NCBI GenBank assembly: GCA_965205015.1
Contig: OZ242029.1
Location: 576,001 to 640,000, forward strand
DNA length: 64,000 nt
Reading direction: 5' to 3'
From: Candidatus Poribacteria bacterium
GTDB lineage: Bacteria; Poribacteria; WGA-4E; WGA-3G
A program made the translations under genes and the position numbers. The notes below the pieces were generated by a model. The model was not told the DNA's origin. It did not search any database and saw only the letters and a list, made by a program, of their open reading frames with translations. How positions within the stretch are numbered: position 1 is the first letter of the stretch; each line of letters opens with the position of its first letter. Below, piece after piece: positions 18,642 to 44,849 of this stretch.

Positions 18642-18716
18642 GCACTCTATGCCCTTCTCACGGGGCGGTTAGGACTCTGCCAGAGATTGGCAGAGGTGAG
18701 AACCCTAACCAAGTGC
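18642..18716 (-). ncRNA. Pseudoknotted 5'-leader RNA motif, copy B
   Basis: GCACT-T-GGTTAGGG-TTCTCAC-CTCTGCCA/TGGCAGAG-TCCTAACC-GCCC-C-GTGAGAA-GGGC-ATAG-AGTGC. Confidence 0.7.
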
Positions 18717-18723
18717 TGATACA

Positions 18724-18752
18724 AGTATACTACAATTTACTGTGAATGTCAA
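18724..18752 (-). promoter_or_regulatory. sigma70-type promoter inside the non-autonomous element
   Basis: TTGACA-17 nt-TATACT on the minus strand. Confidence 0.75.
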
Positions 18753-18845
18753 GTTTATTTTTGATTTTCAACGATTAACGATATTAGACCCAACGCTAAA
18801 GCATTGGGACCTGTTAAGGGAGGATCGTAAAAACTAAAATGATCT

Positions 18846-19724
18846 CTATGAAACACTTCCCAGAACAATCCGTTCCTTCCCCGCATAGTCTTTGCGCAGT
18901 TCATACGTGGAATAGGCAGATTCAGCATCAAGAAGCGTGCGAACGGTGTCGGCTTGCGTCGCACCAATTTCAAGGATAAGCTTTCCACTCGGTGCGAGAT
19001 ATTTCGGTGCCTCAGCAATTAATCGACGAATAACGTCAAGACCGTCATCTCCAGCAAAGAGGGCAATTTCGGGTTCATGGTCCCGGACATCTGGACTCAA
19101 GGTGTCACGCTCCGTATTTTTGATATAGGGTGGATTGGAGGCTATCCAATCAAATTGGGCATCCCCATTCGCACATATTGCGTCTACTGGTTCAAACAGG
19201 TCTCCAGACAAAAACTTAATTTGCGCTGCGGAGGCGTGCGTTTCAGCGTTCTTTCGGGCAACGGCGAGAGCGGGATCAGAGATGTCCGTCGCAACGATCT
19301 CCCATTCTGGTTGTTGCACGGCAAGACTCGTCGCAATTACACCACTTCCTGTACCGAGTTCCAGTAAACGTTGGGAATTTCCGGCTTCTGTTGTGAGGAT
19401 CGTTTCAACGAGCTGTTCTGTCTCCGGGCGCGGAATGAGGACCCGTTCATCCACATAGAAATCCAAGGACATAAACTCCTTGCGATTCGTGAGGTAGCTA
19501 ACAGGTGTACGCGCGATTCTCTTTTTTATTAACTCTCGGAACGGTGTGAGGTGTTCTTGAAAGACGGGCATTTCAAAATGGAGATAGAGTTGCAGGCGGC
19601 TTTTTTCGAGCAGATGCCCAAGCAATACCTCAGCATCTAATCTCGGATTTGGGATGTCGTGCTGTTGGAAGTATTCCGCTGTCCAATCGAGCAGATCCAC
19701 TACGCGCCACATTTTACTCGGCAT
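18846..19724 (-). CDS. prmC: Release factor glutamine methyltransferase
   Basis: VLIPRPETE, ELGTGSG and SNPPY motifs, downstream of prfA. Confidence 0.95.
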   Translation of the reverse strand: MPSKMWRVVDLLDWTAEYFQQHDIPNPRLDAEVLLGHLLEKSRLQLYLHFEMPVFQEHLTPFRELIKKRIARTPVSYLTNRKEFMSLDFYVDERVLIPRPETEQLVETILTTEAGNSQRLLELGTGSGVIATSLAVQQPEWEIVATDISDPALAVARKNAETHASAAQIKFLSGDLFEPVDAICANGDAQFDWIASNPPYIKNTERDTLSPDVRDHEPEIALFAGDDGLDVIRRLIAEAPKYLAPSGKLILEIGATQADTVRTLLDAESAYSTYELRKDYAGKERIVLGSVS

Positions 19725-19750
19725 AGTTTCGTGTCCCTTAACTGGAGGGT

Positions 19751-20818
19751 TTAAACCTCCTGCAACTTTTCCGCCTGATCGGCAGTTGTTAACCGCTCAA
19801 TAAACGTTTGTAGGTCACCGTCTAAAACGGCATCAAGTTGATAGGAACTGAATTGGACCCGGTGGTCAGTTACACGAGATTGTGGGAAGTTATAGGTGCG
19901 AATCTTTTCGCTTCTGTCGCCACTGCCAACCATAGATCTACGGGTTTCGGCTCTTTCATTGTTAAGTTCAAATTGCTTCTGCTCTTGGAGGCGGGCACGG
20001 AGAATCTTCATCGCCTTGGCACGATTTTTATGTTGAGACTTTTCGTCTTGGCAGGTCACAACCAGTCCCGTTGGGAGGTGGGTAATCCGAATAGCAGAGT
20101 CGGTTGTGTTAACGCTTTGTCCACCGGGACCCGAAGATCGGTAGGTATCAATACGTAATTCGGTTGCCTCATCAATCGCCAAATCGAGTTCCTCGGCTTC
20201 CGGAAGAACAGCGACTGTGGCAGCAGATGTATGAATGCGTCCACTCGCTTCGGTTGCAGGAATTCGCTGCACACGATGTATACCGCCTTCAAATTTCAGT
20301 TGACTGTATGCGTTCTGACCTTCAATTGAGAAAACGACCTCTTTAAATCCTTTTAAGCCAGTCGCATTTGAACTGAGGAGTTCCAGCCGCCAGTTTTGAC
20401 GTTCGGCATAGCGGGTGTACATTCGAAACAATTCGGCTGCGAAAAGACTGGCTTCTTCACCACCGGTCCCTGCTCGGATTTCGATGATGACGTTTTTCTC
20501 ATCGTTCGGATCTTTTGGAATCAGAAGAACCTTAAGCACCTCAGTAAGTTGCTCTTTTTTGGCAGTGAGAACGTCCAACTCTTCCTGAACTAATCCAAGC
20601 ATTTCCGCATCCGTTTCCGCTTCTATTAGGAGCAGCGTCTCTTCAAGGGCGGATTCTAACTGCTGGTACTCCTGATATGTGGACACAATTGGCGAAAGTT
20701 CGGCGTGGGTTTTAGATAACTCCATTAATCGCTGTTGATTTGAAATTTGCGCCGGATCTCCGAGTGCTTTTTCGACTTCAGCGTATCTGTTTTCAATATC
20801 CTTGAGTTTCTCAAACAT
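19751..20818 (-). CDS. prfA: Peptide chain release factor 1
   Basis: GGQ motif (SGPGGQSVN), PAT specificity tripeptide, EIRAGTGGEEA. Start placed at MFEK. Confidence 0.97.
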   Translation of the reverse strand: MFEKLKDIENRYAEVEKALGDPAQISNQQRLMELSKTHAELSPIVSTYQEYQQLESALEETLLLIEAETDAEMLGLVQEELDVLTAKKEQLTEVLKVLLIPKDPNDEKNVIIEIRAGTGGEEASLFAAELFRMYTRYAERQNWRLELLSSNATGLKGFKEVVFSIEGQNAYSQLKFEGGIHRVQRIPATEASGRIHTSAATVAVLPEAEELDLAIDEATELRIDTYRSSGPGGQSVNTTDSAIRITHLPTGLVVTCQDEKSQHKNRAKAMKILRARLQEQKQFELNNERAETRRSMVGSGDRSEKIRTYNFPQSRVTDHRVQFSSYQLDAVLDGDLQTFIERLTTADQAEKLQEV

Positions 20819-21021
20819 TTTTGTCACCGCTTGCAAGTTAAAACTTGCGATTAACCGTTAAAAACAAGAGATGCTCCTCTACATTTTCGGATGTAGGGTA
20901 GATCTCTATCCTGCTTGATTTGTGTCCTAAGCATCAGGGATTTCCCGCGCCTGCTGTTGTTAAGGCACGGGTACCCACGCTTGGAACACCGATCAATAGA
21001 CTTACCGGCGAAACGATACCT

Positions 21022-21237
21022 CTAATTATCGTCTGCGGTGAGTCCGTAACGTCGGCGGAAACTTTCAACGCGTCCGGCAGTGTCAATAAATCGAGCTTGT
21101 TGTCCAGTGTAGAATGGGTGACATTTTCCACAAATATCTACCCGCATCTCGGATTGGATCGCGAGCGTTTTATGGGTCGCGCCGCAAATGCATGTAATCA
21201 CGCATTCTACCATTTCTGGATGTATTTCGGCTTTCAT
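21022..21237 (-). CDS. rpmE: 50S ribosomal protein L31 (zinc-binding type)
   Basis: [27 protein letters not shown]. Confidence 0.96.
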
Positions 21238-21326
21238 AATTTTTCTCCTTTGAATCGACAATTTACGATTCTCTAAGCGTCTTGTAACCGCGCTTCTGAG
21301 GCGCGGAAGTTTAAGTGTATAGGCAC

Positions 21327-22661
21327 TCACGCGGATCGCTTTGAACGAGCGTTGGTTCTCACTGACGCATTACTGTAAGTCGCATTGTCTACCATCCGCT
21401 CGAGGAATTCGGCGTTTGTACCAGTTCTGCCGAATTGCTCAATGAGCATTTCAAGCGATTCTGCGTCGTCCATCTGGCTGGTGAATTTCCGCAGCACCCA
21501 GACCTTGTTAAGAACATCGGGTGCCAATAAGAGTTCCTCACGACGTGTTTTCGATTTCTCGATGTTAATCGGTGGATAGATGCGGAGATCTAACAAAGAA
21601 CGCTCCATGTGGATTTCCATGTTGGCAGTGCCTTTGAATTCTTCGTAGATGTACTCATCTTGCCGACTTTCCGTATCAACGAGCACAGATGCAATAACCG
21701 TTAGACTTCCACCTTGTTCAAATTTTCGGGCTGCACCGCAAAACTGACGAGGCTTTACAAATGCCATAGCATCTAAACCCCCCGACAACGTTTTTCCGCT
21801 GTGTGGCGTCATGACATTGTGTGCCCGTGCGAGTCGGGTCATGCTATCCAACAGAACGACGACATCTTTCCCGTACTCTGCCCACCGCTTCGCCTTCTCA
21901 ATCGCCATCTCCGCGACTTGGATGTGCCGTTCCGGATGTTCATCAAAAGTAGAACTAATAACTTCCCCTTTGACAGAACGAGCGACATCTGTAACTTCCT
22001 CAGGGCGTTCATCAATGAGCAAAAAGATGAGAATAACTTCTGGATGGTTCGCCTCAATGCCGGCGGCAATATTCTTCAGCAGCGTCGTCTTACCACTGTA
22101 AGGCGGCGCAACAATCAAGCCGCGTTGTCCCTTGCCGATCGGTGCTATTAAATCCAACATCCGAGTCCCGTATTCTGACTGATTATGTTCCAGCTTCAAT
22201 TTTTCGTACGGGTGGATGGGAGTCAGGTGCTTGAAAAGGATTTTCTGTTTGACGGATTCAGGCACCTCTCCGTTAACCTTCTCAATTTGTAACATTGCGA
22301 AGTAACGCTCTGCTTTATTTTCCGTTTTCTTTGGGGGACGAATGACCCCTTCAACGACGTGCCCGGTTTGTAAATCGAAGCGTCGGATTTGCGATGAGGA
22401 CACGTAAATATCCTCGTTGCTCTGTAAATAATTGGAGCGCGACGAACGGAGAAACCCATAGTGTTGGTCCCGATCATCAAGGATTTCCAAAACCCCACCA
22501 CCATAAAACTGGGTATCCCCCTCAGATTTAGCCTCTATAATTTCGTTAATTAATTCCTCTTTCCGAGACCCATCGTATTCGACCACTCCGAGAGTTAGGG
22601 CAAAGTCTTTGAGTTCCGAGAACTCCATTTCTTGGAGCTTGCGAATGTCCAAGCTCTCCAT
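21327..22661 (-). CDS. rho: Transcription termination factor Rho
   Basis: [52 protein letters not shown]. Confidence 0.98.
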
Positions 22662-23373
22662 AGTTTCTAATACTCCTCATTGTGCCCGGTTCCAAGGTAA
22701 TCGTTCCACCATGGCGTTCATCTAACCACCCAGCGAATTCTTTGTCTCCACGCAAATGTGCGATATTTTGAAAATGGAGCCGCAATTTGAACGCAGTCGC
22801 TAAAATAGGAGACAAAACAGAGGTTAAAATGGAATCGGGGCTGATTCTATAGAATAATTGACTGAAGTTGGTTTCCATTACTTTCGGTTCGCGACTGAAA
22901 ACCACATCTACCGGGTTTCACTACTCTGTCGTTTAATTCATAAATCGGCACAACAGAACCGAGGCACGAAAACTGGGTTTTTCCACCAAGCTGGTTAATC
23001 TGGCATGACACTCCAACCAAACGCATGAGACTTCTGAAGACGCGCTTGTAAGCGACGCGCGACGCCGTTAAGATACGCGACAGAGCAAGATGCAAGGTAT
23101 ACAGGGATAGCGATGGAGTAGGTGCAACGTTGCCCGTGGGAATGTTTCTTGTATGGTTGCGTCGAGATACGTGTTAGAAGGTGGTTTCGACCTAAAGGTG
23201 CCACTTGGTTTTCCATATCAAAACTGGCGTTGCACGCGCTACCTTACAACCAGTGACTCGTTTTTCCTCAAAGGACGCTTCTTTCGGGGTTTACACTGTT
23301 TCATCAGGGGAAAGCTGCGAACTGCACCCTTAAAGCGTGCTTGCGCTTAGGAAGTTAAGAACCTTAATTGTTA

Positions 23374-23402
23374 ATTATACACCATTCAGAATAAAAGGTC
23401 AA
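23374..23402 (-). promoter_or_regulatory. Putative rho promoter preceding a leader of about 700 nt
   Basis: TTGACC-17 nt-TATAAT on the minus strand. Confidence 0.65.
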
Positions 23403-23480
23403 GTTTTTTTCTAAAAAGACGAATTCTTCCGAAATCATGATGTAAGGCGCGGTTTTTTTCAACCGCGCACTTCACACCCC

Positions 23481-25577
23481 TTATTCAGCGTCTTCGCCTT
23501 TCAATTTCTTAAGCCTGCGACGGACTTTCTGGTTATATTGATTTTTCGCTAAGTAGTTTTCCCAAAGGGCTATCGCGTCGTCATTAAACCCTTGTGAGAC
23601 ATAGTAATCACCGAGGGCTATCAGCGGAATATCAGAAAGCGGGTTCCTCTCAATCGCCGTTTTGAATTCAGCAACAGCGGTTTCCGCATCGCCGTTTAAA
23701 AGTGCCAACTCACCCCTACCGTAAGGAATCAAGGCGTGGTCGGGGTACTCTGCCGCCAATTCATCTATCATCTTCTGCGCGTCTTCCAATTTCTTCAAGT
23801 GGTAGGTTGCACGCGCAGCGAGGATCGTCGCATAAACGATCTGATTGCGAAGTTTTTGTTGTTCGACCTTGCTTTCCGATTTGTTGAGAACCCGTTTCGC
23901 CGTCCGAGCGGCGGCTCTATACTTGGCACGGGATTGTACATAATTCCCGTACTTATAGGTAAGGTCACCGAGGGTTTTAGAGCCGATGTATGAATCACCT
24001 TTCCCATCAACGAGATCCTGAAAAATTGCGGCGGCTTTTCGATCCTTTAACCGATAATGGAGGACCTCGGCAAGGCTTTGTAACGCATCTAAATTCTGTG
24101 TGTTCGCCGCGACAGACTTCTCCAGCACCTCCCGTTCTTTCTCAGGTTCACCTAACTTTTTGTGCGCCAGCGAGAGTAACCAGTAAATCTCGGAATCTTT
24201 TCTTTTCGCCATTCCAAGAACAGAATTGTAGGTTTCTATCGCTTTCTCATAGGATTCGGAAGTATAGTGAGTTCGTCCGGTGTCGATGACGGCTTGAATA
24301 ACGCTACCATCTCGGTTTGCAGCTTTCTTGAGGACCTCTCTCGCCCGTTGATGCATCCCTACTTTTCGATAGCAAATCGAGAGTTTGAGGTAGGAATACG
24401 GGTCAAGCTTCACATTCGCCGCCTCTGCGCGGGCAATTGCATCGAAATATAAAGCCCCCGCGTCCCGGTAACTCTCATCACCGTAGAAGAAGTTGGCAAT
24501 CATCAACTCAGCATCATAGTAAGTGCCTTGTTCATCGCCTGCGATACCCCCTTGACCGCCGAAATTCCGCATGACCTCCGATGCACTCACTCCGAATCCG
24601 GAGTCTGCGATTTGGGTATTGATATTCCCCATGGCGCGACTTCTCTCAACACCCCCGCGCGGGCGGTCCATTTCACGTCTCGCTTCTTGCCGGGCATAGG
24701 CTCTTTCTACCTGTGTTGCCAGTGGGTCGTCGGGCTCTGGAATGCTGGCGTTGAGGTCTGTCAGTTCCTGTTTCGCTATCTCAATCTCTTTTTCAGTCCC
24801 TTCGACCTTACCATATCTTTTAACGAGTGATTGATACGTGCGTTTCGCTTCCTCTTCGTTTTTGAGGTGCTGTCGTTGGATGCGTCCTTTATTGGCGATA
24901 GCGAGCGCTGCGCGTTGGCTTCGAGGGTTCCGGTTTGCGAAGTTATCGAAAACCTCTACCGCCTGTTCAAAGTCCTTTGCCTCTTCAAAACTTTTCGCCA
25001 GCATCAGTTGTGCGTTGTGGCTCAATTCAAGGTTCGGAAAATTGTTGATAACCGCGTCAAATTGGGTTTGAGAGGCTTTAAAATCCTTTTCCCGGAAATG
25101 GTGCATCCCGAGTTCATAATGCGCCTCAGCAGCTTCATCACTCTTCGGTGCAGCGGCGATGACGGCTTCATAGGCTTTGACGCCTTCCGCGGGTTGATTC
25201 ATTCGGTCAATGGAAAGTTTACCTATAGCGAGTTGTGCTTGCAATGCCTCAGGCGTGCCGGGTTGGGCATCCACGATATTTTGATACGCCTGTATTGCAC
25301 CTGGGTAGTCTTTCTGTTCAGCGAGCTTTTCTGCGGCGCGCAGTGCGCTACCAGATAGGCAACCGACGTGTACCACCGCTACTAAAACAGCCACGACGAG
25401 CGCGCAATACTTCATACTTTTGACAGCGAGTTTTCGCCAGTGCTCATACATCCTGATTGCGAGTTGTGCTGAAAATTTCACGATCTTTCTCCTTTTTTGA
25501 TATTGACTCGGTTCCAAGACACCTACGCGAATAAGCATCCCTGCTTTAATAACACGATTTGGATGCACATTCATCAA
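23481..25577 (-). CDS. Large TPR-repeat (lipo)protein
   Basis: Many TPR helices. Hydrophobic segment plus VGC lipobox-like motif after MKY, so the true start is probably later than the ORF-track start. Confidence 0.8.
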   Translation of the reverse strand: MMNVHPNRVIKAGMLIRVGVLEPSQYQKRRKIVKFSAQLAIRMYEHWRKLAVKSMKYCALVVAVLVAVVHVGCLSGSALRAAEKLAEQKDYPGAIQAYQNIVDAQPGTPEALQAQLAIGKLSIDRMNQPAEGVKAYEAVIAAAPKSDEAAEAHYELGMHHFREKDFKASQTQFDAVINNFPNLELSHNAQLMLAKSFEEAKDFEQAVEVFDNFANRNPRSQRAALAIANKGRIQRQHLKNEEEAKRTYQSLVKRYGKVEGTEKEIEIAKQELTDLNASIPEPDDPLATQVERAYARQEARREMDRPRGGVERSRAMGNINTQIADSGFGVSASEVMRNFGGQGGIAGDEQGTYYDAELMIANFFYGDESYRDAGALYFDAIARAEAANVKLDPYSYLKLSICYRKVGMHQRAREVLKKAANRDGSVIQAVIDTGRTHYTSESYEKAIETYNSVLGMAKRKDSEIYWLLSLAHKKLGEPEKEREVLEKSVAANTQNLDALQSLAEVLHYRLKDRKAAAIFQDLVDGKGDSYIGSKTLGDLTYKYGNYVQSRAKYRAAARTAKRVLNKSESKVEQQKLRNQIVYATILAARATYHLKKLEDAQKMIDELAAEYPDHALIPYGRGELALLNGDAETAVAEFKTAIERNPLSDIPLIALGDYYVSQGFNDDAIALWENYLAKNQYNQKVRRRLKKLKGEDAE

Positions 25578-26706
25578 TCAATTCTAAGACTTCTTGCCGA
25601 GTGTATCCCTCTTTCTGAATGAGTTCGTCGCAATTGACACTGTTTTTTGCGTCGGGTCCCTTACCGGCTTCAAGGATTGCATTTGTCAACCAACTGGTGC
25701 GTACTCCATTGATGCCAGAGGTGTAGTTCGCCTGGTACTCGCCTTTTACCAAACCGACGAGCTGATCGACCTTGTTGCGGGGATACCCTTCCGGACGCGG
25801 ATAAGCAAGCGGTTCTGGCGCACCACCTTTGGGCGTGTAACGAATACCATTTTTGATTTCGATCGTTCCCTCATCACCTTCCAGAATTACCCATTCTTCA
25901 AACCCAACGCGCGTGTTGCCGAGGATGGTGATTGTGCCTTCGGCACCGTTATCCAGTGTGACATCGGAGTAAGAATTAATTTCAACGAACTTTGGAACGA
26001 GGTTTCCATCGTCGTCCTCAAATTTCATGTCAGTTGTCCCGTAGACCTCAGCAGGCAAGGCACTCGTCATCCATAAGAATATATCTTGGAGGTGGCTTCC
26101 TGAGTCATTGGGCTGTCCACCGCCAGAGAAGCGTGGATCCCCTCGCCACCCACCTGCTCCCCACCGCTGCGCCATGTAGACCTCAAATTTCTGGAGGTTC
26201 CCGATCCGTCCTTCAGAGATTGCGCGTCTGGCTGCCATGTAGGTATCCTCATAATGGCGTTGATACCCACCGACGAGATGTAATCCACTGCCCATTGCGA
26301 TTTTGGTTACAGCGATTGCGTCACCAACGACATTCGCCATCGGTTTTTCGACGATCACGTGGCATCCGGCGCGGAGCGCGTATTTCGTGTGAATATCGTG
26401 AAGGGAGTGAGGCGAGAATACACCGACGATATCCAGATCTTCGTGATTGAGCATCTCCACGAACTCGTATTCACCGAGGTAACGGTTGAAACTATTCGCT
26501 TCATAGCCGTCAACCTGTTCTTGGAGCGCACTTTCTAAAGCGTCCAAACTCGCTTCGTGAGTGTCCACAGCGGCAACGACTTCAGCGTCGGAACGGGTTG
26601 CGAAACCGAGTGTATTTCCCCGTCCTGCACCGCCGGGTCCAATCACACCAACTCTTAAAATATCATTTTTGCGGGTTCCCATGATTCTAACCTCTCTGGA
26701 TGACAT
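25546..26706 (-). CDS. Gfo/Idh/MocA family oxidoreductase
   Basis: VGVIGPGGAG, VEKPM and GGG..D.GSH motifs. Confidence 0.9.
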   Translation of the reverse strand: MSSREVRIMGTRKNDILRVGVIGPGGAGRGNTLGFATRSDAEVVAAVDTHEASLDALESALQEQVDGYEANSFNRYLGEYEFVEMLNHEDLDIVGVFSPHSLHDIHTKYALRAGCHVIVEKPMANVVGDAIAVTKIAMGSGLHLVGGYQRHYEDTYMAARRAISEGRIGNLQKFEVYMAQRWGAGGWRGDPRFSGGGQPNDSGSHLQDIFLWMTSALPAEVYGTTDMKFEDDDGNLVPKFVEINSYSDVTLDNGAEGTITILGNTRVGFEEWVILEGDEGTIEIKNGIRYTPKGGAPEPLAYPRPEGYPRNKVDQLVGLVKGEYQANYTSGINGVRTSWLTNAILEAGKGPDAKNSVNCDELIQKEGYTRQEVLELIDECASKSCY

Positions 26707-30392: not shown

Positions 30393-30412
30393 TTTTCCTT
30401 CATGTGAACAGT

Positions 30413-37702: not shown

Positions 37703-38647
37703 ATGACCAAGATTAAAATCGGAATTATCGGTTCGGGTGGGATGGCACGGAATCACCTCACACGATTTGCTTCAATTCCAGATGCCGAAATCGTGGCGAT
37801 CGCCTCCAGAAACGAACAGACAGGCACCCAACTCGCCAAAGCACATAAGACAGTCTTTATACCCGAATGGGAGCGTCTGGTTGAACGTGAAGACATAGCG
37901 GGGGTCGTCATCTGCACCCACAACGACAGCCACGGTGAGATGATACTCGCGGCGTTGCGATCAGATAAACACGTTTTCGTGGAGTATCCGCTCGCCAGTG
38001 ATGTTGGTCAAGGAGAAGCGGCACTGCAGCTCGCAGAAAAACGGGGTCGTGTGCTTCGGGTATCGCATCCTGAGGCAGTCTCCAACACGCACAAAGCCCT
38101 CAAGCAAAAAATAGGCGAACTCGGCGATCTGCTGCTCACCTCTTTCGTGCGTCTCACACCGGGGCGCGGTGCGCGTCCTGAGATACTTTTCAATCTGCCG
38201 GTGTCAGGAACCCCCGCCCATTTTTTCATCTATCATATCTATCCGATTGTGGACTTCTTCGGGGGTGCTGCGTCCGTCAAAAGAAACGCCGTCTATGAAG
38301 GATTAAGGGAGAATGGACAATACGACGGGTTTGTCAACACACTCACCGTTGAATTCAAACGCGGCGGTATCGGACAGTGGACCTGGGCAGGTGGTATCGC
38401 CATCAACGCCGCCGAGGAACATGAACGATACGTCCTCACCGAAGGCACGATCAGTGATGCGGGTGGCGAGTGGCACTGCACAACACCTTCTGGCGTGACA
38501 CCGATTCTTATACCGGATTCACCGCAACAGACGCTCCAGGCGTTATGGTTCTCCGAGATCCGAGGGGCTGCTGATCAGCCTCCGAATTTGGAAGAGGCAA
38601 CGATTGCATTAGAGGCAATCCGCATCAGTCTTGGGTTTGAAGAATAA
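37703..38647 (+). CDS. Gfo/Idh/MocA family oxidoreductase
   Basis: IGIIGSGGMA and KHVFVEYP motifs. Confidence 0.85.
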   Translation: MTKIKIGIIGSGGMARNHLTRFASIPDAEIVAIASRNEQTGTQLAKAHKTVFIPEWERLVEREDIAGVVICTHNDSHGEMILAALRSDKHVFVEYPLASDVGQGEAALQLAEKRGRVLRVSHPEAVSNTHKALKQKIGELGDLLLTSFVRLTPGRGARPEILFNLPVSGTPAHFFIYHIYPIVDFFGGAASVKRNAVYEGLRENGQYDGFVNTLTVEFKRGGIGQWTWAGGIAINAAEEHERYVLTEGTISDAGGEWHCTTPSGVTPILIPDSPQQTLQALWFSEIRGAADQPPNLEEATIALEAIRISLGFEE

Positions 38648-38978
38648 GTGTAGGATGGTGGGGATTTTCTGCCGCCAGAGGTTCAATTGAAAGTCTGCAT
38701 CCAAATGCGTTAAGAATGGTTCTAAGCGTATCAATCGTTAAAGCCTTATCGCTTGATAGTTCTTCTGAGAGCGTCTCCGGTTCAGCGTTAATTCTTTTGG
38801 CAAGTGCTGATATGCCCCCCTCCGTCTCAGCAACGGTTCGGAGTGCCAATAGGACAACTCGCGGGTCTCCAAAAGTTTGGTATTCCTCCATAATTGCTTG
38901 GAGATAATCCTTCACTCCTCCCGAATCGGAAGTGAGGCGTTGAATCATATATTCTCGCCATGTTCCCGAATCTCTCAT
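38625..38978 (-). CDS. Addiction-module antidote (HigA/HI1420-like HTH) protein with no adjacent toxin
   Basis: YL.A.ME..GD....LALRTVAE..GGISALAK..TL...LS......TL..IL.A.G..LSI. Confidence 0.75.
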   Translation of the reverse strand: MRDSGTWREYMIQRLTSDSGGVKDYLQAIMEEYQTFGDPRVVLLALRTVAETEGGISALAKRINAEPETLSEELSSDKALTIDTLRTILNAFGCRLSIEPLAAENPHHPTLILQTQD

Positions 38979-38990
38979 CGTTGTGTCTCC

Positions 38991-39797
38991 TTATACCAGT
39001 GTCCGTTGGAACCAGGCAACCGATCTGGCAATCACCGCTTGCTCCCATGCAACCGTATTGAAAGTATGATCGGCTTTATCAACGATCTCAAGTTCCGTCA
39101 AAGCATCGCGCCCGCGCATCAATTCGTAGTAACGTCTGCCGTGGGAGGCGGGCACGACATCATCACCACTACCATGAATCACGAGGAGCGCCCCCGTAAA
39201 CTGCTGAATCAAGATAGAAGGAGATAGGTGAGGGAGTTCTTCATAAAACGCCTTCCCGACGATGTTTGGGTTTAACTGCGCGATTTCCTCCGGGGTCGGC
39301 GTGTTCTTGGCTCTCTCCAAAATTTCGTTTTTCCGGTCTGGCGGATCGTCCGAGAGCGGTGCCCACATCACCGTCGATTTCACACGTGTATCTTGCCCAG
39401 AGACACACGCCGCGACACAGCCCCCCATGCTCAATCCCAAAATGCCGATGCGTTCAGGGTCTACCCCTTGCATAGCGGTAAGCACATCAATTGACTTGAC
39501 GGCATCCGAAATCTCGCCACCGATCGTCATTTCCGAGAAGTCGCCGGCACTGTCCCCGGAACCCCGAAAATCGAAGCGGAGCACATAGAACCCGATAGCG
39601 GCAAGTTCTCGGGCAGTTTTGACGAATATTCTGTGCGGTTCAACCTTCGTTCCCGTGAATCCGTGAAAAAAGGCAACTGCTGGACCCGGTGTTTCGTAAC
39701 CTGTTGGTGAATGCAGTATCCCGTTTATCTGCTGTCCTTGATTGTAAAATACGATCGGTCTTTCCATCATATCCTTCTTTTCCTTAGTGAGGTTCAC
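38991..39797 (-). CDS. Alpha/beta fold hydrolase
   Basis: HGFTG, FDFRGSGDS, GLSMGG nucleophile, HG..D..V and ADHTF. Confidence 0.9.
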   Translation of the reverse strand: MNLTKEKKDMMERPIVFYNQGQQINGILHSPTGYETPGPAVAFFHGFTGTKVEPHRIFVKTARELAAIGFYVLRFDFRGSGDSAGDFSEMTIGGEISDAVKSIDVLTAMQGVDPERIGILGLSMGGCVAACVSGQDTRVKSTVMWAPLSDDPPDRKNEILERAKNTPTPEEIAQLNPNIVGKAFYEELPHLSPSILIQQFTGALLVIHGSGDDVVPASHGRRYYELMRGRDALTELEIVDKADHTFNTVAWEQAVIARSVAWFQRTLV

Positions 39798-40055
39798 TCT
39801 CCATTTGACGCCAAAGCCCTCTGGAAATCCTCTGGACTTTCTGCTAAGATTGCAGCGCGATGCAGCTGCTTAAGGCGTTGGGGATCCTCAATTGTTTCTA
39901 ATACCGGTCTGAAAGTACGCGCCACATCCGGCTGTAATCGAAGCTCCAATGCTTCAAGGATATCCTCACGCGCGCGTTCTTTCATACCTTGTTCAAGTCC
40001 CTGTTCAAGTCCCTGTTGGTGTGCTTCCGCTGTTGCTTTCTCCGTCCAGTATTCG

Positions 40056-40220
40056 GTGATAGCACCCACAACCTAAAGGTTGGGGCTTCGGTTTCATAGC
40101 AACTGCGGTTTTCTCTAAGAGTCCACCGTCTAACTGTCGCTCCACCTGCGGGCATTTCCCTGATACTCTGAAATAGGTGAGCATCAGGCACATCGTCAAG
40201 TGACGGCTATCCCTGCCCGC
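40056..40220 (-). ncRNA. TnpB omega-RNA (reRNA) scaffold overlapping the tnpB 3' end
   Basis: Located at the right end, with stems GCGGGCA/TGCCCGC and the terminal hairpin. Conserved with 18383-18537. Confidence 0.75.
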
Positions 40221-41308
40221 AATATGTTTATCGCAGCGTTGATGTCCCTATCGTGGTGTGAACCACAGTCAGGACACGTCCACTGCCTATCAGAGAGTGA
40301 AAGATTTTCGTTTTTGTAGCCACAATCGGAACACGGTTTGGTTGTCGCAGTCCATTGACCGACCTGTTTCAAAAGACGCTTATGTTTGCTACACTTATAC
40401 TTCAATATCTCAACAAACTGGTAGAAAGCAAGGTCGGAGACTTTGCGTCCCCAAAGCCGTTTCATGCCATCAAGGTTCAAGGTCTCAATGGCAATAGTAT
40501 CAAAACGCTTACAAAGTTCAGAGGCAAGCTGCCAATGAAAGTCTTTGCGTTGATTAGAAACTTTACGGTGAAGTCGTGCCAATGCTCTGACACACCGCCA
40601 CCAGCCGTTAGAACCTTTCTGTTTACGGCTCAAGTCTTTGTTGAGTGCGCGAAGTTTCTTCAAGGAGTGTTTCAAAGGTTGGCGGTGTTGCTTCTTCTCA
40701 CCCGTGCTCAGGGTCAAGTAAGCGTCTTTCATGCCGAAGTCTGCCCCAACGCTTTCACCTGTTGTCGGCAGACGTTTCATATCCGTGTCGTCTGTAGTTA
40801 TGCAAAGCCAATAGTCACCGCAGGCATCACGCTTTATCGTGATATGCCGAATACAACCGTGCCACTGCCGGTGTTTGTGAAAAGTATAAGGCACGCGGTC
40901 AAAACGCCATTTACCTTTTTCCCATTTCCGGAAGGATATTGTAACTCGGTTGTCTTTGAGTTTCCAACCGGCGGGTCCCGGAAAGGTAATAGACTTAAAC
41001 TTGTTCCTACGTTTGATTTTCGGTCTACCGCCTATTTTGTCGAAGAACCGCTCATATGCATTATCAATACGCATCAACTCTTGTTGAACCGCTTGGCTCG
41101 GCAGGGACCTCCAATGCGGGTGCGTCGTCCGCTTGAGTTCTCTAAAGTGGTGATCCATAGCGTTATAGTTCGCATATGGCAGCCCGTCTTTATATCGCTG
41201 ACGGTGCCACTTATGGAAGTATTCATGCACTTGCCACATATCATCAAGCAGATTGCCGATGCGAATACAATTCGATTGGTGACCGAACGGATATTTATAG
41301 GTTTTCAT
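40196..41308 (-). CDS. tnpB: RNA-guided endonuclease TnpB
   Basis: RuvC-I GADFG, RuvC-II IETL, zinc finger CSDC..CPDC and RuvC-III HDRDINAA. The catalytic D-E-D is intact. Confidence 0.95.
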   Translation of the reverse strand: MKTYKYPFGHQSNCIRIGNLLDDMWQVHEYFHKWHRQRYKDGLPYANYNAMDHHFRELKRTTHPHWRSLPSQAVQQELMRIDNAYERFFDKIGGRPKIKRRNKFKSITFPGPAGWKLKDNRVTISFRKWEKGKWRFDRVPYTFHKHRQWHGCIRHITIKRDACGDYWLCITTDDTDMKRLPTTGESVGADFGMKDAYLTLSTGEKKQHRQPLKHSLKKLRALNKDLSRKQKGSNGWWRCVRALARLHRKVSNQRKDFHWQLASELCKRFDTIAIETLNLDGMKRLWGRKVSDLAFYQFVEILKYKCSKHKRLLKQVGQWTATTKPCSDCGYKNENLSLSDRQWTCPDCGSHHDRDINAAINILRAGIAVT

Positions 41309-41319
41309 GGTCTATCAAG

Positions 41320-41400
41320 TATCAAGTCTTTAACCCCTTGTTAGTGGGTAGGCAGGTACATTACCAAGCGGTAATGCTAACAATACCTGCCAACTTGATA
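41320..41400 (-). ncRNA. Pseudoknotted 5'-leader RNA motif, copy A (tnpB leader)
   Basis: TATCAAGT-T-GGCAGGTA-TTGTTAG-CATTACC/GGTAATG-TACCTGCC-T-ACCC-A-CTAACAA-G-GGGT-TAAAG-ACTTGATA. Confidence 0.7.
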
Positions 41401-41406
41401 TTACTA

Positions 41407-41435
41407 ATTATACCACAATTTTAGGTGAAAGTCAA
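41407..41435 (-). promoter_or_regulatory. sigma70-type tnpB promoter
   Basis: TTGACT-17 nt-TATAAT. Confidence 0.75.
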
Positions 41436-41541
41436 ATTAAAATGAGGCTATCAACCCTTATGCCGTCTACATCCCCTACCTAAAGGCAGGGGTCTTGACG
41501 GAAGATTGATAATATTAGATTGCTGCACGGTTTTCTCCAGT

Positions 41542-41584
41542 ATGCTGCGAATTACAGCGAAATGCTGCGAATTATAGCGAAATG
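41542..41584. repeat. 20-bp tandem duplication
   Basis: ATGCTGCGAATTA(C/T)AGCGAA twice. Confidence 0.7.
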
Positions 41585-41665
41585 TGTCATCTTTTCAGTT
41601 TTTTGTAGGTTTCCTTTAGCAATTCGGCTGTGCGTTTGTGAAATAGGCCTCAGGTTGTGTCCGAA

Positions 41666-41760
41666 TGTGACGTTTTAAACGTCACAATTACGGCAATTCG
41701 GACGTTTTAAACGTCACAGTGACGTGCGGAAGTCAAGTGGGACGGGAAAAGTGACGTTTT
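41666..41760. promoter_or_regulatory. Repeated palindrome TGTGACGTTTTAAACGTCACA plus half-sites
   Basis: Full palindrome at 41666-41686, near-copy at 41701-41718, GTGACGT half-sites at 41719 and 41751. Confidence 0.5.
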
Positions 41761-41906
41761 TTCGGCATTTTTTTCTCCGCGGGTTTTCCGTCGGCTTCGG
41801 TTATCGGGGTATTCCGGAATATTGTTGTTATCAATGGACAGAGGAGCTACCCGTTTTTCGCAGCTTCGCACGGGAGTCCTCTCCTTTGAGAAAACGTTAT
41901 ATATAC

Positions 41907-41935
41907 ATTATACGATTTCAAACAATATGGGTCAA
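41907..41935 (-). promoter_or_regulatory. sigma70-type promoter pointing toward the Rpn-S-like gene
   Basis: TTGACC-17 nt-TATAAT. Confidence 0.6.
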
Positions 41936-42149
41936 GTTAATTTGGAGTAAGTATATCTGATATTTACCACAGTTATCATGAAGTCAATGATACTACAGAG
42001 ATAGCAGGTATCGCCAATATTCTATTAGCGAAAACTGAATGGCTCTGGCTAGACAGTGTGGGCATTCTTAAAAGCAAGATGTGAAAAATAACGAGGAAGA
42101 TGATTGGTAGAACTGCGCCTATTTAGATTGAAACCTTCCACATTTTTCC

Positions 42150-42178
42150 TTGAAAAAAAGCCCAAAAACCGCTATACT
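42150..42178 (+). promoter_or_regulatory. sigma70-type promoter
   Basis: TTGAAA-17 nt-TATACT, duplicated at 44714-44741 with a 16-nt spacer. Confidence 0.65.
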
Positions 42179-42185
42179 CTCTATA

Positions 42186-42287
42186 TCACGTTGGCAGACA
42201 TAATCGGCGTTACCGCCCCCTGCCCAGTAACGGGTGGGGACCCCGGTGACGTGTCTGCCTCCCACCGATTAGGGGATAAAAGCGTGA
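42186..42287 (+). ncRNA. Pseudoknotted 5'-leader RNA motif, copy C
   Basis: TCACGT-T-GGCAGACA-TAATCGG-CGTTACC..GGTGACG-TGTCTGCC-TCCC-A-CCGATTA-G-GGGA-TAAAA-GCGTGA. Confidence 0.7.
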
Positions 42288-42447
42288 GCGTGAGCGTCAA
42301 CAGATACTTTTGAAAGACAATCGTGAAAGCGAACAGAATAGATCCTCTATGTTCACAGTCCGAGACGCTGAAAGCGCGATGATCGCGTTGACAAGTTTCT
42401 CGATTGCTGTTATCGCTGGAGTCTTTTTATACAATCTTCTCATCGTA

Positions 42448-43856
42448 CTAAAGTTTGGACAATATTGTAAGTTTCAAGCTGCTTTGTCGAAAGGTAGCGT
42501 GGTATCGTGTTCAGATATGGGATGAATATTCTGTGAGTTGGTCTCTTCTTGGGAACTCGCAGAATATTCCAACGCTCTGAGGTGCGACTGTAAATAAGCG
42601 ACCCGTAACCCTTGGGTCAAGTGCTTCGGATGATACCAATGAATCCCGAGATGCTCGCAGACCTCTTTGACGCTCACGCGATCCGAGGGATACCGAGACC
42701 CAAACTTCAAGAAGACCAACTTCGTCAGAGACGCTGCGACGAAACTCAGCTGCACGAAGCGATTGATGCTTTTGCGAGACTTGACCCGATAGGCATCAAA
42801 TCCGAAATGCTGCTTGACATCTCGAAACGCTGTTTCTATCTGCCACCTCTGCCGGTAGTATTCAACGATCTTCGGGAGCTCCAAGGTCATATCTGTTGTA
42901 AAGACACAGAAATACCGATACGGTTTTGAGGGTTTGACTCGGGTGCGTATCACGACGAGTCGGACGTCTGTCGGACACATTTTCGTCCGAACGACCTCTG
43001 AGGCGACCTGATACGTTTTTTCCAGGATGCAAACGTCTTGATACCGTAAGCGTTGGATGTTCAAACGGTCTCCATATTTCTTCGGACGCCCGCGCTGGGG
43101 GCGCTTCGGACGTTTCGGTAAACGATAAAACACCGCATTTGACTTCGCACGACACAACAGATGATGTCCGAGTTCCAAGAGCATTTCAAAGACTTTTCGG
43201 CGGCAGAACCCTCTATCAAAGAGGATCAACCCCCGGGGGAGCTTTGAACAGATACGTTTCAACACCGCATCACCTTTGTCCCGGAGCGTCTGAGGTGCAA
43301 TGAGTTTCACCCAGACCGGAAACAGCAACCAATCTGCCGCTGTCTCGCAGAGTAAACCTAATGCCCCAAACTCGTGTCCGAAGTGAAACTTTGATTGATT
43401 CACGCGATGTTTACCGTGATAACTGAAGTTGCGGAAAAAATGTAAACCCCATTGGGTTTTACCCGTCTTCAAGGCTTTGGTGGCATCATAGACGTAAACC
43501 CAGTCGGCAAACACGCCCTGGAGCCTTTTCATCAGGCACGCAGCAACCGCATCGGTATCCCATTTGCCCCGGGAAAGAAACTTCGGAAACGACCAATAGC
43601 GTGTCGCGGATCCACTCGACTGATACAGGTGCGTCAGGCTGCCTCCAGGCGGTTGAGTCATAAACCCAAAAATAAATGCTTGAAAAAGCGCAAAGTTTTG
43701 GGAGTTGAACAAATGACGAAAATCCGATACAATACTTTCTAAGTGGAGAAGCAGGGGCATTTTTGCCTTCCTTTCAAAACAGTGGTATGTTTATGAAAGG
43801 ATACCTGCTTTTCTGCTTTCAAACATCTTAATTCTTTAAAATTGTCCAAACTTTAG
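42448..43856 (-). mobile_element. IS4-superfamily (IS701/ISH3-like) insertion sequence, 1409 bp
   Basis: Perfect 16-bp TIR CTAAAGTTTGGACAAT and 8-bp target duplication TCATCGTA (42440-42447, 43857-43864). Confidence 0.9.
42474..43760 (-). CDS. DDE transposase (IS4 superfamily)
   Basis: YDAT, FDRGF and YRQRWQIETAFRDVKQ (YREK signature). Confidence 0.9.
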   Translation of the reverse strand: MPLLLHLESIVSDFRHLFNSQNFALFQAFIFGFMTQPPGGSLTHLYQSSGSATRYWSFPKFLSRGKWDTDAVAACLMKRLQGVFADWVYVYDATKALKTGKTQWGLHFFRNFSYHGKHRVNQSKFHFGHEFGALGLLCETAADWLLFPVWVKLIAPQTLRDKGDAVLKRICSKLPRGLILFDRGFCRRKVFEMLLELGHHLLCRAKSNAVFYRLPKRPKRPQRGRPKKYGDRLNIQRLRYQDVCILEKTYQVASEVVRTKMCPTDVRLVVIRTRVKPSKPYRYFCVFTTDMTLELPKIVEYYRQRWQIETAFRDVKQHFGFDAYRVKSRKSINRFVQLSFVAASLTKLVFLKFGSRYPSDRVSVKEVCEHLGIHWYHPKHLTQGLRVAYLQSHLRALEYSASSQEETNSQNIHPISEHDTTLPFDKAA

Positions 43857-44287
43857 TCATCGTAGGGAATAGCACCTTAAAATCCGTCAGTGTTGTGCTT
43901 GGTAATGTTTCAAACATTCTGTCAGCAGCAACACTGCTGACGATACTTGAAGAAGGAATCAGTCTCATGTTTTACCGAATCAGACTCGCTCTCAAAGAAG
44001 AAAGCGAAATCAAAGAACAGGGTCGCCAAGAAGCTTACCAAGAAGTGTCCGACTGGAACCGTCGCCGTCTTGAGGCAGAAGCCCGTGGCGAAACTTTTAC
44101 AGAGCCACCGCCGGGACACGATTCCCTGAAACCCAGAAAGAAAAAACGTTTCATCTTTTTCTGATGCTTTCAGAGTCTTGAAGCCGAAGCCCCTAAACGT
44201 AGCCGAACGGTTATCGCTTGAGCATTCTAACGTTGGAACTCAATTCAGCGAAAGACAAGTATTGTAAATCCACTGGAGATTTAGGTA

Positions 44288-44386
44288 TTGATGTTCTGGT
44301 TAATCGAATTTTTAGAAGCAAAAGATAACGCAATAATAGCATTTTCCGCTCTGATAACAGCAATTGCCACTGGTGTTCTCGCTGTT
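44288..44386 (+). pseudogene. Truncated membrane-protein gene cut by an IS3 end
   Basis: MFWLIEFLEAKDNAIIAFSALITAIATGVLAV runs directly into the TGTAGTGC inverted repeat. Confidence 0.45.
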
Positions 44387-44599
44387 TGTAGTGCATACGC
44401 TTATTTAGACCACAATTTCGCAAAGTTAAGAGAAGGTTCGTTTCCCTTGAAATTCCATAGGCGTCAAAGACCCTAACGCCGAATGCGGGCGTTTCTGATT
44501 ATAGACGTGTGTGATAAAATGCCCAATACGGGCTCTCGCTTCGTAGATGTCCTCAGAGTCGTTGAGGTGAACTTCTTCCTCCTTGAGGGTTCTGATAAA
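44387..44599 (-). mobile_element. IS3-family remnant (transposase C-terminus and right inverted repeat)
   Basis: Minus strand reads IRTLKEEEVHLND..EARARIGHFITHVYNQKRPHSALG.LTPMEF, homologous to 48075-48243. The IR matches 48245-48283. Confidence 0.85.
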
Positions 44600-44748
44600 T
44601 TCCTAGGACTGTGTAGGCATTCTCAAAAGCAAGATATGAAAAATGTGAAAAATAACGAGGAAGATGATTAGTAGAACTGCGCCTGTTTAGATTGAAATCT
44701 TCCACATTTTTCCTTGAAAAAAGCCCAAAAACTGTTATACTATTTATA

Positions 44749-44849
44749 TCATGTTGGCAGACATAATCGGCGTTACCGCCCCTTCCCAGTAACGGGTGGG
44801 GACCCCGGTGACGTGTCTGCCTCCCATCGATTAGGGGATAAAAGCGTGA
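44749..44849 (+). ncRNA. Pseudoknotted 5'-leader RNA motif, copy D
   Basis: Near-identical to copy C. The changes in paired positions (TCATGT, TCGATTA) keep pairing through G-U. Confidence 0.7.

What the first reader, a model, noticed from the sequence alone, without database searches (positions are those of the whole stretch)
18642..44849. One pseudoknotted 5'-leader RNA fold, four copies, three sequence variants, three gene contexts
Seen: copies at 18642-18716(-), 41320-41400(-), 42186-42287(+) and 44749-44849(+) share one architecture. It runs outer stem P0, U, 8-bp P1 opening with GG, a 7-nt bulge, hairpin P2, P1' ending CC, a 4-bp hairpin P3 whose loop is the complement of the bulge, an A-rich linker, then P0'. 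Sequences differ but pairing is kept. P1 is GGCAGGTA/TACCTGCC, GGTTAGGG/TCCTAACC and GGCAGACA/TGTCTGCC, and the pseudoknot is TTGTTAG/CTAACAA, TTCTCAC/GTGAGAA and TAATCGG/CCGATTA. Each copy begins 7-8 nt after a -10 box. It precedes tnpB, a protein-less omega-RNA, and two membrane-protein genes unrelated to tnpB, and none of the three downstream start codons has an obvious Shine-Dalgarno. Inference: a portable cis-acting RNA module (5' stabiliser, SD-independent translation element, protein-binding autoregulator or ribozyme) spread by IS605 elements and reused by other genes. I cannot assign it to a known family by eye.
Basis: partly seen in the sequence, partly recalled or inferred. Interest (0 to 1): 0.88.

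Follow-up and report, generated by a model that had tools for sequence, protein, structure and literature searches.

The report
Pseudoknotted leader RNA of TnpB transposons
The four copies are real members of a large, previously undescribed family of folded RNA leaders that sit at the very start of the transcripts of TnpB/omega-RNA transposons in sponge-associated Poribacteria, and they appear to clamp the RNA's 5' end and gate the start codon.

Summary
All four window copies fold as described (three-way junction, 7-nt bulge/loop pseudoknot), and no Rfam 15 family matches them.

The motif belongs to the left end of IS200/IS605-family elements:
- Copy B leads tnpB.
- Copy A leads an ORF-less mini-element carrying only an omega-RNA.
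- Copies C and D are exapted in front of paralogous membrane-protein genes; C's gene is split by a DDE IS.

Evidence that the fold is real:
- 79 of 80 Poribacteria tnpB loci carry the motif just after a near-consensus promoter.
- 97% of alignment cells pair, and 27 of 34 pairs show compensatory changes.
- A covariance model hits 86 of 150 Poribacteria genomes, with more than 1,100 matches.
- Further sequence families share the same architecture.

- The 3' strand of the closing helix is always duplicated, and both copies covary with the 5'-terminal strand.
- In one family the second copy is the start codon region itself.
- tnpB lacks a Shine-Dalgarno sequence.

Best reading (inferred, not shown): a 5'-end clamp combined with an alternative-pairing gate on translation. 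The ORF-less elements also keep the fold, so it probably serves omega-RNA production as well. Ribozyme and riboswitch readings are unlikely.

The parts
41313..41400 (-). Copy B leader. 5' strand S 41393-41400; P1 41384-41391 with 41351-41358; bulge (pseudoknot 5') 41377-41383; P2 hairpin 41359-41376; P3 with pseudoknot 3' loop 41333-41349; 3' strand copy 1 41320-41327; copy 2 41313-41320.
   Evidence: 104 bits
41407..41435 (-). Promoter of IS B. The -35 and -10 boxes match 11 of 12 positions and a TG extension is present. The -10 box ends 6 nt before the leader.
   Evidence: the same layout occurs in 63 of 78 related loci
40196..41308 (-). tnpB gene, 370 aa. The ATG lies 4 nt after the end of the leader model, with no Shine-Dalgarno sequence.
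   Evidence: PF01385, PF07282
40056..40195 (-). Right end and omega-RNA scaffold of IS B. It ends in the conserved right-end terminal word.
   Evidence: This bin has the highest depth in the RNA-library contigs, which is weak evidence.
40056..41508 (-). Whole tnpB-only IS200/IS605-family element, boundaries +/- 1 nt.
   Evidence: Empty-site joint 40054->41508 in contigs of 4 runs; copy-to-copy similarity limits
18633..18716 (-). Copy A leader (A-type family). S is at 18711-18716. The second 3' strand copy pairs with a downstream S-like word to form hairpin P4, 18636-18639 with 18626-18629.
   Evidence: (29 bits)
18724..18752 (-). Promoter of the A mini-element, matching 11 of 12 positions.
18383..18826 (-). 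ORF-less PATE-like mini-element. In order: left-end hairpin, promoter, leader, structured spacer, omega-RNA scaffold (about 18383-18540) and right end. The left boundary is approximate.
42184..42297 (+). Copy C leader, preceded by its promoter at 42150-42178. A palindromic repeat is inserted in the P2 loop.
   Evidence: (67 bits)
44747..44853 (+). Copy D leader, preceded by its promoter at 44714-44741. It carries the same P2 insert, and its second 3' strand copy is degenerate.
   Evidence: (70 bits)
44866..45327 (+). Host ORF of 153 aa behind D, with a hydrophobic N-terminal part followed by a coiled coil. The TTG start is supported by mostly synonymous differences from the G112 orthologue.
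   Evidence: (no Pfam family over cut-off)
42310..44026 (+). Paralogue of the D ORF behind C, in two pieces (42310-42444 and 43853-44026). A DDE-transposase IS splits it; the transposase ORF is 42474-43760 on the minus strand.

Best explanation
**What it is (shown).** This is a structured RNA of about 90 nt encoded in the left end of Poribacteria IS200/IS605-family elements. It begins at or within a few nucleotides of the predicted transcription start of a near-consensus promoter.

The fold is a three-way junction:
- The 5'-terminal strand S pairs with a 3' strand to form P0.
- A long arm, P1-bulge-P2, extends from the junction.
- A short hairpin, P3, has a loop that pairs with the bulge to form a 5-8 bp pseudoknot.
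- A second copy of the 3' strand always follows.

**How it most likely works (inferred).** S:copy 1 closes the junction and buries the 5' end. This would protect a long, poorly translated transcript that must reach the omega-RNA at its far end.

S can instead pair with copy 2. Copy 2 lies in the ribosome-binding stretch of the Shine-Dalgarno-less tnpB start. In one family it is the start codon region itself. The leader would therefore also gate TnpB translation by alternative pairing.

In the ORF-less elements copy 2 is held in a local hairpin, leaving the clamp locked.
For: **Structure**
- In 77 leaders, 97.2% of 2604 cells pair and 27 of 34 pairs show double changes. None of 500 shuffles reaches this, and slid controls give 26-43%.
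- The four central pseudoknot pairs each show four pair types.
- The A-type family gives 96.9% paired with 24 of 36 pairs changed. The L133-type family gives 98.5%.

**Position**
- The -10 box ends 5-6 nt before motif nucleotide 1 in 63 of 78 loci. The -35 box matches at least 5 of 6 in 60 of 78.

**Part of the IS**
- Searches place the motif inside the element.

**Both 3' copies covary with S**
- B-type: 93.8% (copy 1) and 92.6% (copy 2) paired, across about 12 S variants.
- L133-type: copy 2 spans nucleotides -3 to +5 of the start codon. Nucleotide -1 switches C to G together with S in 8 of 23 sequences.
- Two further families in G018 also carry tandem copies.

**Link to translation**
- The start codon lies 4-8 nt after the motif in 8 TnpB subfamilies confirmed by Pfam and in the 27 BLASTP-confirmed hits among the 30 best.
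- An SD-like 4-mer occurs in 3 of 80 tnpB leaders, against 21 of 48 window ORFs and a background of 0.09.

**Function beyond tnpB**
- 18 of 18 A-type copies lack a long ORF yet keep the fold.
- The exapted D copy is conserved in G112.
Against: - No transcript 5' end, structure probing or expression data exist. The only RNA libraries available were contigs, which cannot show starts.
- The ORF-less A-type elements keep both 3' copies although nothing is translated. Translation gating therefore cannot be the whole function.
- In the main family, copy 2 ends 5-6 nt before the AUG, so occlusion there is only inferred.
- Pseudoknot-free MFE folds favour copy 1 in 56 of 79 leaders and copy 2 in only 8 of 79. 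Nothing identified here would flip the switch.
- Covariation with G-U pairs fits RNA, but it also fits the top DNA strand of a single-strand transposon.
- The counts are of sequences, not of independent evolutionary events.
Confidence: 0.55

Rival explanations
1. The leader acts at the level of transcription. It would modify RNA polymerase or block Rho (processive antitermination), so that a barely translated transcript is read through to the omega-RNA and into the flanking guide.
For: - The leader sits at +1 of a very strong promoter.
- It is kept in ORF-less elements whose only product is an omega-RNA 250-300 nt downstream.
- tnpB lacks an SD, which would expose the transcript to Rho.
Against: - No conserved unpaired nucleotides are available for a polymerase contact.
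- This reading does not explain why copy 2 overlaps the start codon in the L133-type family.
- No terminators were tested.
Confidence: 0.12
2. The leader is a shape-specific protein-binding platform. TnpB or a host factor would bind it, for autoregulation or for assembling the TnpB-omega-RNA particle on its own transcript.
For: - Each TnpB subfamily has its own leader sequence family with the same architecture.
- P1 is conserved in sequence far more than the pseudoknot or P2.
Against: - Exapted copies before unrelated host genes keep the fold.
- The same leader type occurs with different TnpB subfamilies: L104 has a B-type leader with an L133-type TnpB.
- No binding test was possible.
Confidence: 0.12
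3. The fold acts as single-stranded DNA of the transposon's top strand during TnpA-mediated excision or insertion, not as RNA.
For: - The motif lies in the left end of a single-strand transposon.
- It is retained in minimal non-autonomous elements.
- The strand bias of G-T pairs matches the top strand.
Against: - Its position is locked to the promoter start and to the start codon.
- It is conserved before host genes that have no transposon ends.
- The TnpA-type subterminal hairpins are separate and lie further out.
- GNRA-type P2 loops occur in about half of the copies.
Confidence: 0.07
4. The leader is a self-cleaving ribozyme or a ligand-sensing riboswitch.
For: It is a compact pseudoknotted junction at a mobile element. 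The linker after P3 is conserved within the main family.
Against: - Between families, almost only the first two and last two pairs of P1 are shared. The linker and junction differ.
- No Rfam ribozyme or riboswitch matches at E <= 10.
Confidence: 0.04
5. The bulge and the P3 loop pair between molecules rather than within one, giving copy-specific dimers or rings of leader RNAs.
For: Covariation cannot tell cis from trans pairing. There are 42 distinct bulge words among 77 leaders.
Against: - Bulge words diverge at the same pace as P2, as expected for plain compensatory drift.
- The geometry was not tested.
Confidence: 0.04

Closest known systems
TnpB omega-RNA (guide RNA of IS200/IS605 elements) and the Rfam families IS605-orfB-I (RF03065) and HEARO (RF02033)
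   Same: Both are non-coding RNAs encoded by the same class of transposon. Both contain a pseudoknot and are transcribed on the sense strand. Both are kept in ORF-less PATE-like elements. Passages in preprint 10.1101/2023.03.14.532601 say that PATEs often encode omega-RNAs.
   Different: The omega-RNA lies at the 3' end, overlaps the right end and runs into the flank as a guide. The leader lies at the 5' end behind the left-end promoter and carries no guide. No Rfam model matches it. That RF03065 and RF02033 are in the library is taken from passages of PMC11701678.
Translational control of transposase genes by mRNA folding (IS200 5' stem-loop over the ribosome site; IS10/IS50 fold-back inhibition). 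Recalled, not looked up.
   Same: An IS-encoded leader in which a 5' segment can pair with the ribosome-binding or start region and keep expression of the element's protein low.
   Different: Those are simple hairpins. Here a duplicated 3' strand offers two exclusive partners for the 5'-terminal strand, and a pseudoknotted junction lies between them. The regulated gene is tnpB, not the transposase.
5'-terminal stabiliser structures (ompA leader hairpin) and exonuclease-resistant pseudoknotted junctions of flaviviruses (xrRNA). Recalled; xrRNA papers were seen only in a search listing.
   Same: The 5' end is buried in a helix, and a three-way junction is locked by a pseudoknot.
   Different: No sequence or model similarity. 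Nuclease resistance was not tested. An xrRNA threads its 5' end through a ring, and nothing here shows that.
phi29 packaging RNA (recalled)
   Same: Paired 5' and 3' ends, a three-way junction, and a bulge complementary to a hairpin loop.
   Different: In phi29 the loops pair between molecules and the RNA serves a packaging motor. There is no evidence for multimers here.

Membership tests
Any Rfam 15 family (including IS605-orfB-I, HEARO, ribozymes, riboswitches) | A covariance-model match at the family's gathering score | tested here: not met
   The whole window gives 0 matches at gathering score. No match overlaps a leader on its own strand at E <= 10; the only overlapping hits are weak chance matches to 5.8S rRNA and, on the opposite strand, pemK. 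Nothing matches at E <= 1 on 17 related loci either.
TnpB omega-RNA | Lies at the 3' end of or behind tnpB, ends at the right transposon boundary and continues into a flank-derived guide | tested here: not met
   The leader lies between the left-end promoter and the tnpB start. A separate omega scaffold sits at 40056-40195 and at 18383-18540.
Riboswitch or self-cleaving ribozyme | A core of conserved unpaired nucleotides shared by all members | tested here: not met
   The junction and linker nucleotides differ between the B-type, A-type, L133-type and G018 families.
tRNA or tRNA-like structure | Detected as a cloverleaf by a tRNA finder | tested here: not met
   ARAGORN finds 0 genes in the window.
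IS-type translational leader (alternative pairing over the start site) | A leader segment complementary to the ribosome-binding or start region, kept complementary through evolution | tested here: met
   S against copy 2: 92.6% of cells paired in 77 B-type leaders and 97.3% in 23 L133-type leaders, where copy 2 includes the AUG. An effect on translation was not tested.
5'-terminal mRNA stabiliser | A helix that includes the first nucleotides of the transcript | tested here: inconclusive
   The predicted start falls on motif nucleotides 1-3 in 63 of 78 loci, judged from -10 spacing. No mapped 5' ends exist, because contigs cannot show them.
IS200/IS605 family element (context of copies A and B) | Subterminal imperfect hairpins at both ends, tnpB with an omega scaffold, and precise empty sites | tested here: met
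   Similar left- and right-end hairpins; Pfam domains; the empty-site joint; a Y1 tnpA next to a related tnpB in G003, judged by eye from its C-terminus.

The most novel reading that the evidence does not exclude
TnpB/OMEGA transposons of this lineage carry a second functional RNA besides the omega-RNA. It is a new fold class at the 5' end of the element's transcript.

On this reading the fold is needed in cis to make a stable, full-length omega-RNA precursor, which is why ORF-less elements keep it. In tnpB-bearing copies it doubles as a start-codon gate that uncouples high guide-RNA output from low nuclease output.
Probability: 0.3. Interest if true: 0.85.

Novelty: new variant of a known kind. 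Interest (0 to 1): 0.75.

Why it matters
TnpB elements are the ancestors of Cas12 and are being developed as compact genome editors. How the native elements balance guide-RNA and nuclease expression from one transcript is not worked out.

A leader with textbook covariation gives a concrete, testable handle on that question:
- It has more than 1,100 model matches in 86 of 150 Poribacteria genomes.
- It is kept in elements that make only an omega-RNA.
- It has been co-opted before host genes.

It would also be a new RNA family for Rfam, and a natural example of a duplicated-strand switch at an mRNA's 5' end.

My searches found no description of it:
- 'Poribacteria' + 'TnpB' gave 0 papers.
- 'Poribacteria-1' gave 0 papers.
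- TnpB/pseudoknot/leader/left end gave a listing only.
- 'tnpB mRNA'/IS605/untranslated region gave a listing only.

Subscription journals and supplements were not searchable.

Tried and rejected
**Leads that went nowhere**
- Rfam at gathering and permissive thresholds matched no leader on its own strand.
- ARAGORN found nothing.
- I looked for a third partner of S, or of the pseudoknot words, elsewhere in the IS. S or its complement recurs only at the two 3' copies apart from a few chance hits. Extra 7-mer hits occur in 10 of 73 loci with no pattern.
- I tested for a link between the S variant and codon 3 of tnpB. There is none.
- I tested whether the pseudoknot is 'hypervariable'. It is not: identical bulge words fall from 4 of 4 pairs at >= 95% ORF identity to 6 of 249 at 80-85%, much like P2.
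- A pairing between copy 1 and the right-end terminal word, suggested by RNAalifold, is only 3 bp and was dropped.
- An internal second promoter in the tandem copies is not conserved, judged by eye.

**RNA evidence**
- Four metatranscriptome runs held as contigs cover the tnpB IS. They cannot show starts, strands or levels.
- Uncovered parts (42353-44343) mean nothing.

**Outside Poribacteria**
- Six of six plasmid tnpB loci show no model hit (best E = 0.38) and no such leader by eye. They come from Rhodothermus, Geoalkalibacter, Aulosira, Nostoc, Chroococcidiopsis and Bacteroides.
- This is a small sample, not proof of absence.

**Limits**
- 14 of the 64 model hits in G001-G003 were not examined.
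- The 997 unlisted phylum hits were not examined.
- Before alignment A1 I dropped L014, L001 (replaced by window copy B) and six loci whose leader sequence duplicated one already kept.
- Supplements of papers were not consulted.


Full report
**1. The observation**

Pseudoknot-free folding gives the same nested helices in all four: closing helix P0, 8-bp P1, an unpaired 7-nt bulge, hairpin P2 and a short hairpin P3. Energies lie 3.4-4.0 SD below shuffles, and 0 of 200 shuffles are as stable. In each copy the bulge is the exact complement of the P3 loop.

Each copy stands just behind a sigma-70-type promoter with 10-11 of 12 consensus matches. No Rfam 15 family reaches its gathering score anywhere in the window. 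No family matches a leader on its own strand even at E <= 10; only weak chance hits overlap copy A. ARAGORN finds no tRNA.

**2. Relatives and covariation**

No whole genome is held for the window. The ORF behind copy B (40196-41308, minus strand) is a TnpB, with Pfam OrfB_IS605 and Cas12f1-like TNB domains.

A scan of species-representative genomes returned 80 loci encoding relatives at 75-96% identity. All are titled Candidatus or uncultured Poribacteria. In 79 of 80 loci the same motif sits upstream of tnpB. It is 92 nt from its first nucleotide to the ATG in most copies. The exception is L014.

I aligned 73 distinct locus leaders with the four window copies (A1).
- 27 of 34 pairs show changes on both sides.
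- None of 500 shuffles reaches the observed values, and sliding the partners gives 26-43% pairing.
- The four central pseudoknot pairs each show four pair types, with 42-49 of 77 sequences changed on both sides.
- There are 42 distinct bulge words.

Bulge words diverge with overall IS divergence at about the pace of P2. This is ordinary compensatory evolution, not a special diversifying process. P1 is far more conserved in sequence.

**3. Where it sits**

Copies within one genome are similar from about 208 nt upstream of the ATG to about 130-146 nt past the stop. Contigs in four RNA libraries join window 40054 to 41508, which is an empty site. IS B is therefore 40056-41508, +/- 1 nt.

Its ends carry similar imperfect hairpins of the IS200/IS605 type. 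The 3' region is an omega-RNA-like scaffold ending in a conserved terminal word. The promoter and leader are thus integral parts of the left end of a tnpB-only element.

In 63 of 78 loci the -10 box ends 5-6 nt before motif nucleotide 1. The -35 box matches at least 5 of 6 positions in 60 of 78. The predicted transcript therefore begins with the 5' strand of P0.

**4. Abundance and contexts**

A covariance model built from A1 (R1) gives these results.
- It finds only the four copies in the window.
- It finds 23, 23 and 18 matches in three Poribacteria genomes.

I examined 50 of the 64 matches in the three genomes.
- Of the 30 best, 27 are followed 4-7 nt later by an ORF with BLASTP similarity to Pfam-confirmed TnpBs.
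- The other three are a tnpB with an in-frame stop, a 5' tnpB remnant, and a tnpB cut off by a contig end.
- Of the 20 weakest, 15 precede tnpB. Eight subfamilies of 364-425 aa were confirmed by Pfam; the rest were judged by eye.
- The remaining five precede other things: a signal-peptide protein (L114), a DNA methylase-HNH fusion (L121), an ORF-less element (L126), and, as degenerate remnants, katG twice.

In G003, 17 of 24 TNB-domain matches have an R1 leader. Three more tnpB genes have a divergent leader; R1 with filters off scores two of them at 24-27 bits, and the third (10 bits, E = 0.7) was judged by eye. One tnpB directly follows a Y1 tnpA and has no leader.

Of five R1-negative genomes, four have no TnpB at all. 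The fifth (G018, 52 TNB matches) carries two further leader families with the same architecture and unrelated sequence. The class is therefore wider than R1 can see.

**5. Copy A**

The stretch 18379-18540, downstream of copy A, matches the right end of many tnpB elements. The orthologous ECF-sigma locus of four other genomes aligns only from about 18386-18369 onward.

Alignment shows a left-end hairpin, promoter, leader, about 100 nt of spacer, an omega scaffold and the right-end terminal word, with no tnpB. Copy A is therefore the 'protein-less omega-RNA' context.

Relatives of this A-type leader occur in 20 of 175 genomes.
- In 18 of 18 examined copies the longest ORF starting within 200 nt has 31-117 aa.
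- In 11 of 18 the right end was found by pattern 330-490 nt from the leader start. Four more show variant ends by eye.
- The fold is kept: 96.9% paired, 24 of 36 pairs with double changes, 0 of 500 shuffles.

That PATE-like elements often encode omega-RNAs is in print (passages of preprint 10.1101/2023.03.14.532601). A conserved leader in them is not mentioned there.

**6. Copies C and D**

C and D lie in a duplicated stretch (42052-42425 resembles 44607-44981). This stretch has no transposon-end hairpin.

D precedes a 153-aa ORF with a hydrophobic N-terminal part and a coiled coil. The ORF behind C is its paralogue, split at 42445/43852 by an IS encoding a DDE transposase.

The G112 orthologue of D keeps the leader, including the pseudoknot words. 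It lacks the roughly 30-nt palindrome that sits in the P2 loop of C and D. It differs from D mostly synonymously from the TTG at 44866 onward. L114 shares the promoter cassette and differs by a compensatory change in the pseudoknot. These are exapted copies under continued constraint.

**7. The duplicated 3' strand**

In every family the 3' strand of P0 occurs twice.

- **Main family.** The copies are tandem, and copy 2 ends 5-6 nt before the ATG. Both covary with S through about a dozen S variants: 93.8% of cells paired for copy 1 and 92.6% for copy 2.
- **L133-type family** (61 of 175 genomes). Copy 1 is followed by a canonical Shine-Dalgarno sequence. Copy 2 is the start region itself, nucleotides -3 to +5. 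Nucleotide -1 changes C to G together with S in 8 of 23 sequences, and 97.3% of cells pair.
- **A-type elements.** Copy 2 pairs with a downstream S-like word in a 4-bp hairpin that itself covaries.

An SD-like 4-mer occurs in 3 of 80 tnpB leaders. The comparison figures are 21 of 48 long window ORFs and 9% of random 15-mers. MFE folds pair S with copy 1 in 56 of 79 leaders and with copy 2 in 8 of 79.

**8. Reading**

Shown here:
- a real structured element, covarying on the sense strand;
- integral to the IS left end;
- positioned from the predicted +1 to the start codon;
- with two alternative partners for the 5'-terminal strand.

Inferred:
- S:copy 1 buries the 5' end and closes the junction, stabilising a long transcript whose 3' end is the omega-RNA.
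- S:copy 2 occludes the start region and keeps TnpB translation low.
- ORF-less elements lock copy 2 away and keep the clamp.

Arguments against, and open points:
- There is no experimental 5' end.
- There is no identified trigger for the switch.
- The retention of copy 2 without an ORF remains unexplained.
- A role as top-strand DNA is formally possible.

Ribozyme and riboswitch readings are unlikely. The families share almost no unpaired nucleotides.

**9. Known relatives and novelty**

The nearest known things are the omega-RNA of the same elements, IS leaders that fold over their start sites, and 5' stabilisers. The leader is a member of none by the tests listed in the membership table.

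Six of six non-Poribacteria plasmid tnpB loci lack the leader. The three cyanobacterial ones have a -10 box 6-7 nt before the ATG, so they look leaderless.

Literature searches found no description.

I rate this a new RNA family and a new variant of IS leader control, of clear interest for TnpB biology.

Noticed in passing
window 42217-42250 and 44779-44812; also L027, L050, L113, L114, L036, L004: A palindromic element of about 30 nt (a run of C, then a short loop, then a run of G) is inserted in the P2 loop of several leaders and in a left-end hairpin. It also occurs at dozens of other places in G002, G003 and G112. It looks like a REP- or MITE-like mini-repeat.
   Followed up: partly
window 42445-43852: An IS encoding a DDE_Tnp_1/DDE_5 transposase (ORF 42474-43760, minus strand) splits the membrane-protein paralogue behind copy C.
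   Followed up: partly
window 17604-18382: The A mini-element ends about 165 nt upstream of an ECF sigma-factor gene, which is followed by an FHA-domain gene. Its strong promoter and omega-RNA read toward that gene, so the insertion may affect sigma-factor expression. Orthologous loci in four genomes align only from the element's right end onward.
   Followed up: no
L014 (genome contigs locus), upstream of tnpB: A natural variant in which a left-end hairpin of another subfamily is joined directly to the linker and tandem copies. The promoter and leader core are missing, and the tnpB ORF there is cut to 133 aa.
   Followed up: no
window 41324/41405 and 41438/44448 (contig joints, runs X1-X3): A 1996-nt contig from RNA libraries joins the B promoter region directly to the tandem copies, skipping the 80-nt leader core. 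It also joins to a stretch resembling 44448-44586. It probably comes from a relative with a different arrangement. The sides are only 34 nt long, and it remains unexplained.
   Followed up: no
L127, L130 (G001, G003): Degenerate leader remnants with their promoters lie 30-40 nt upstream of katG, which has its own Shine-Dalgarno sequence. This suggests an IS-derived promoter has been captured by a host gene.
   Followed up: no
L183, L184, L185 (cyanobacterial plasmids): tnpB homologues at 35-37% identity have a -10-like box ending 6-7 nt before the ATG and start with the same first three codons as the Poribacteria genes. They may be translated from leaderless mRNAs.
   Followed up: no
window 40000-40180: The right-end/omega-RNA bin has 10-60 times the summed contig depth of the rest of the IS in four RNA libraries. 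This would fit omega-RNA accumulation, but contig depth is a poor measure.
   Followed up: no
whole window: There is no tRNA gene and no Rfam family at gathering score in 64 kb.
   Followed up: yes
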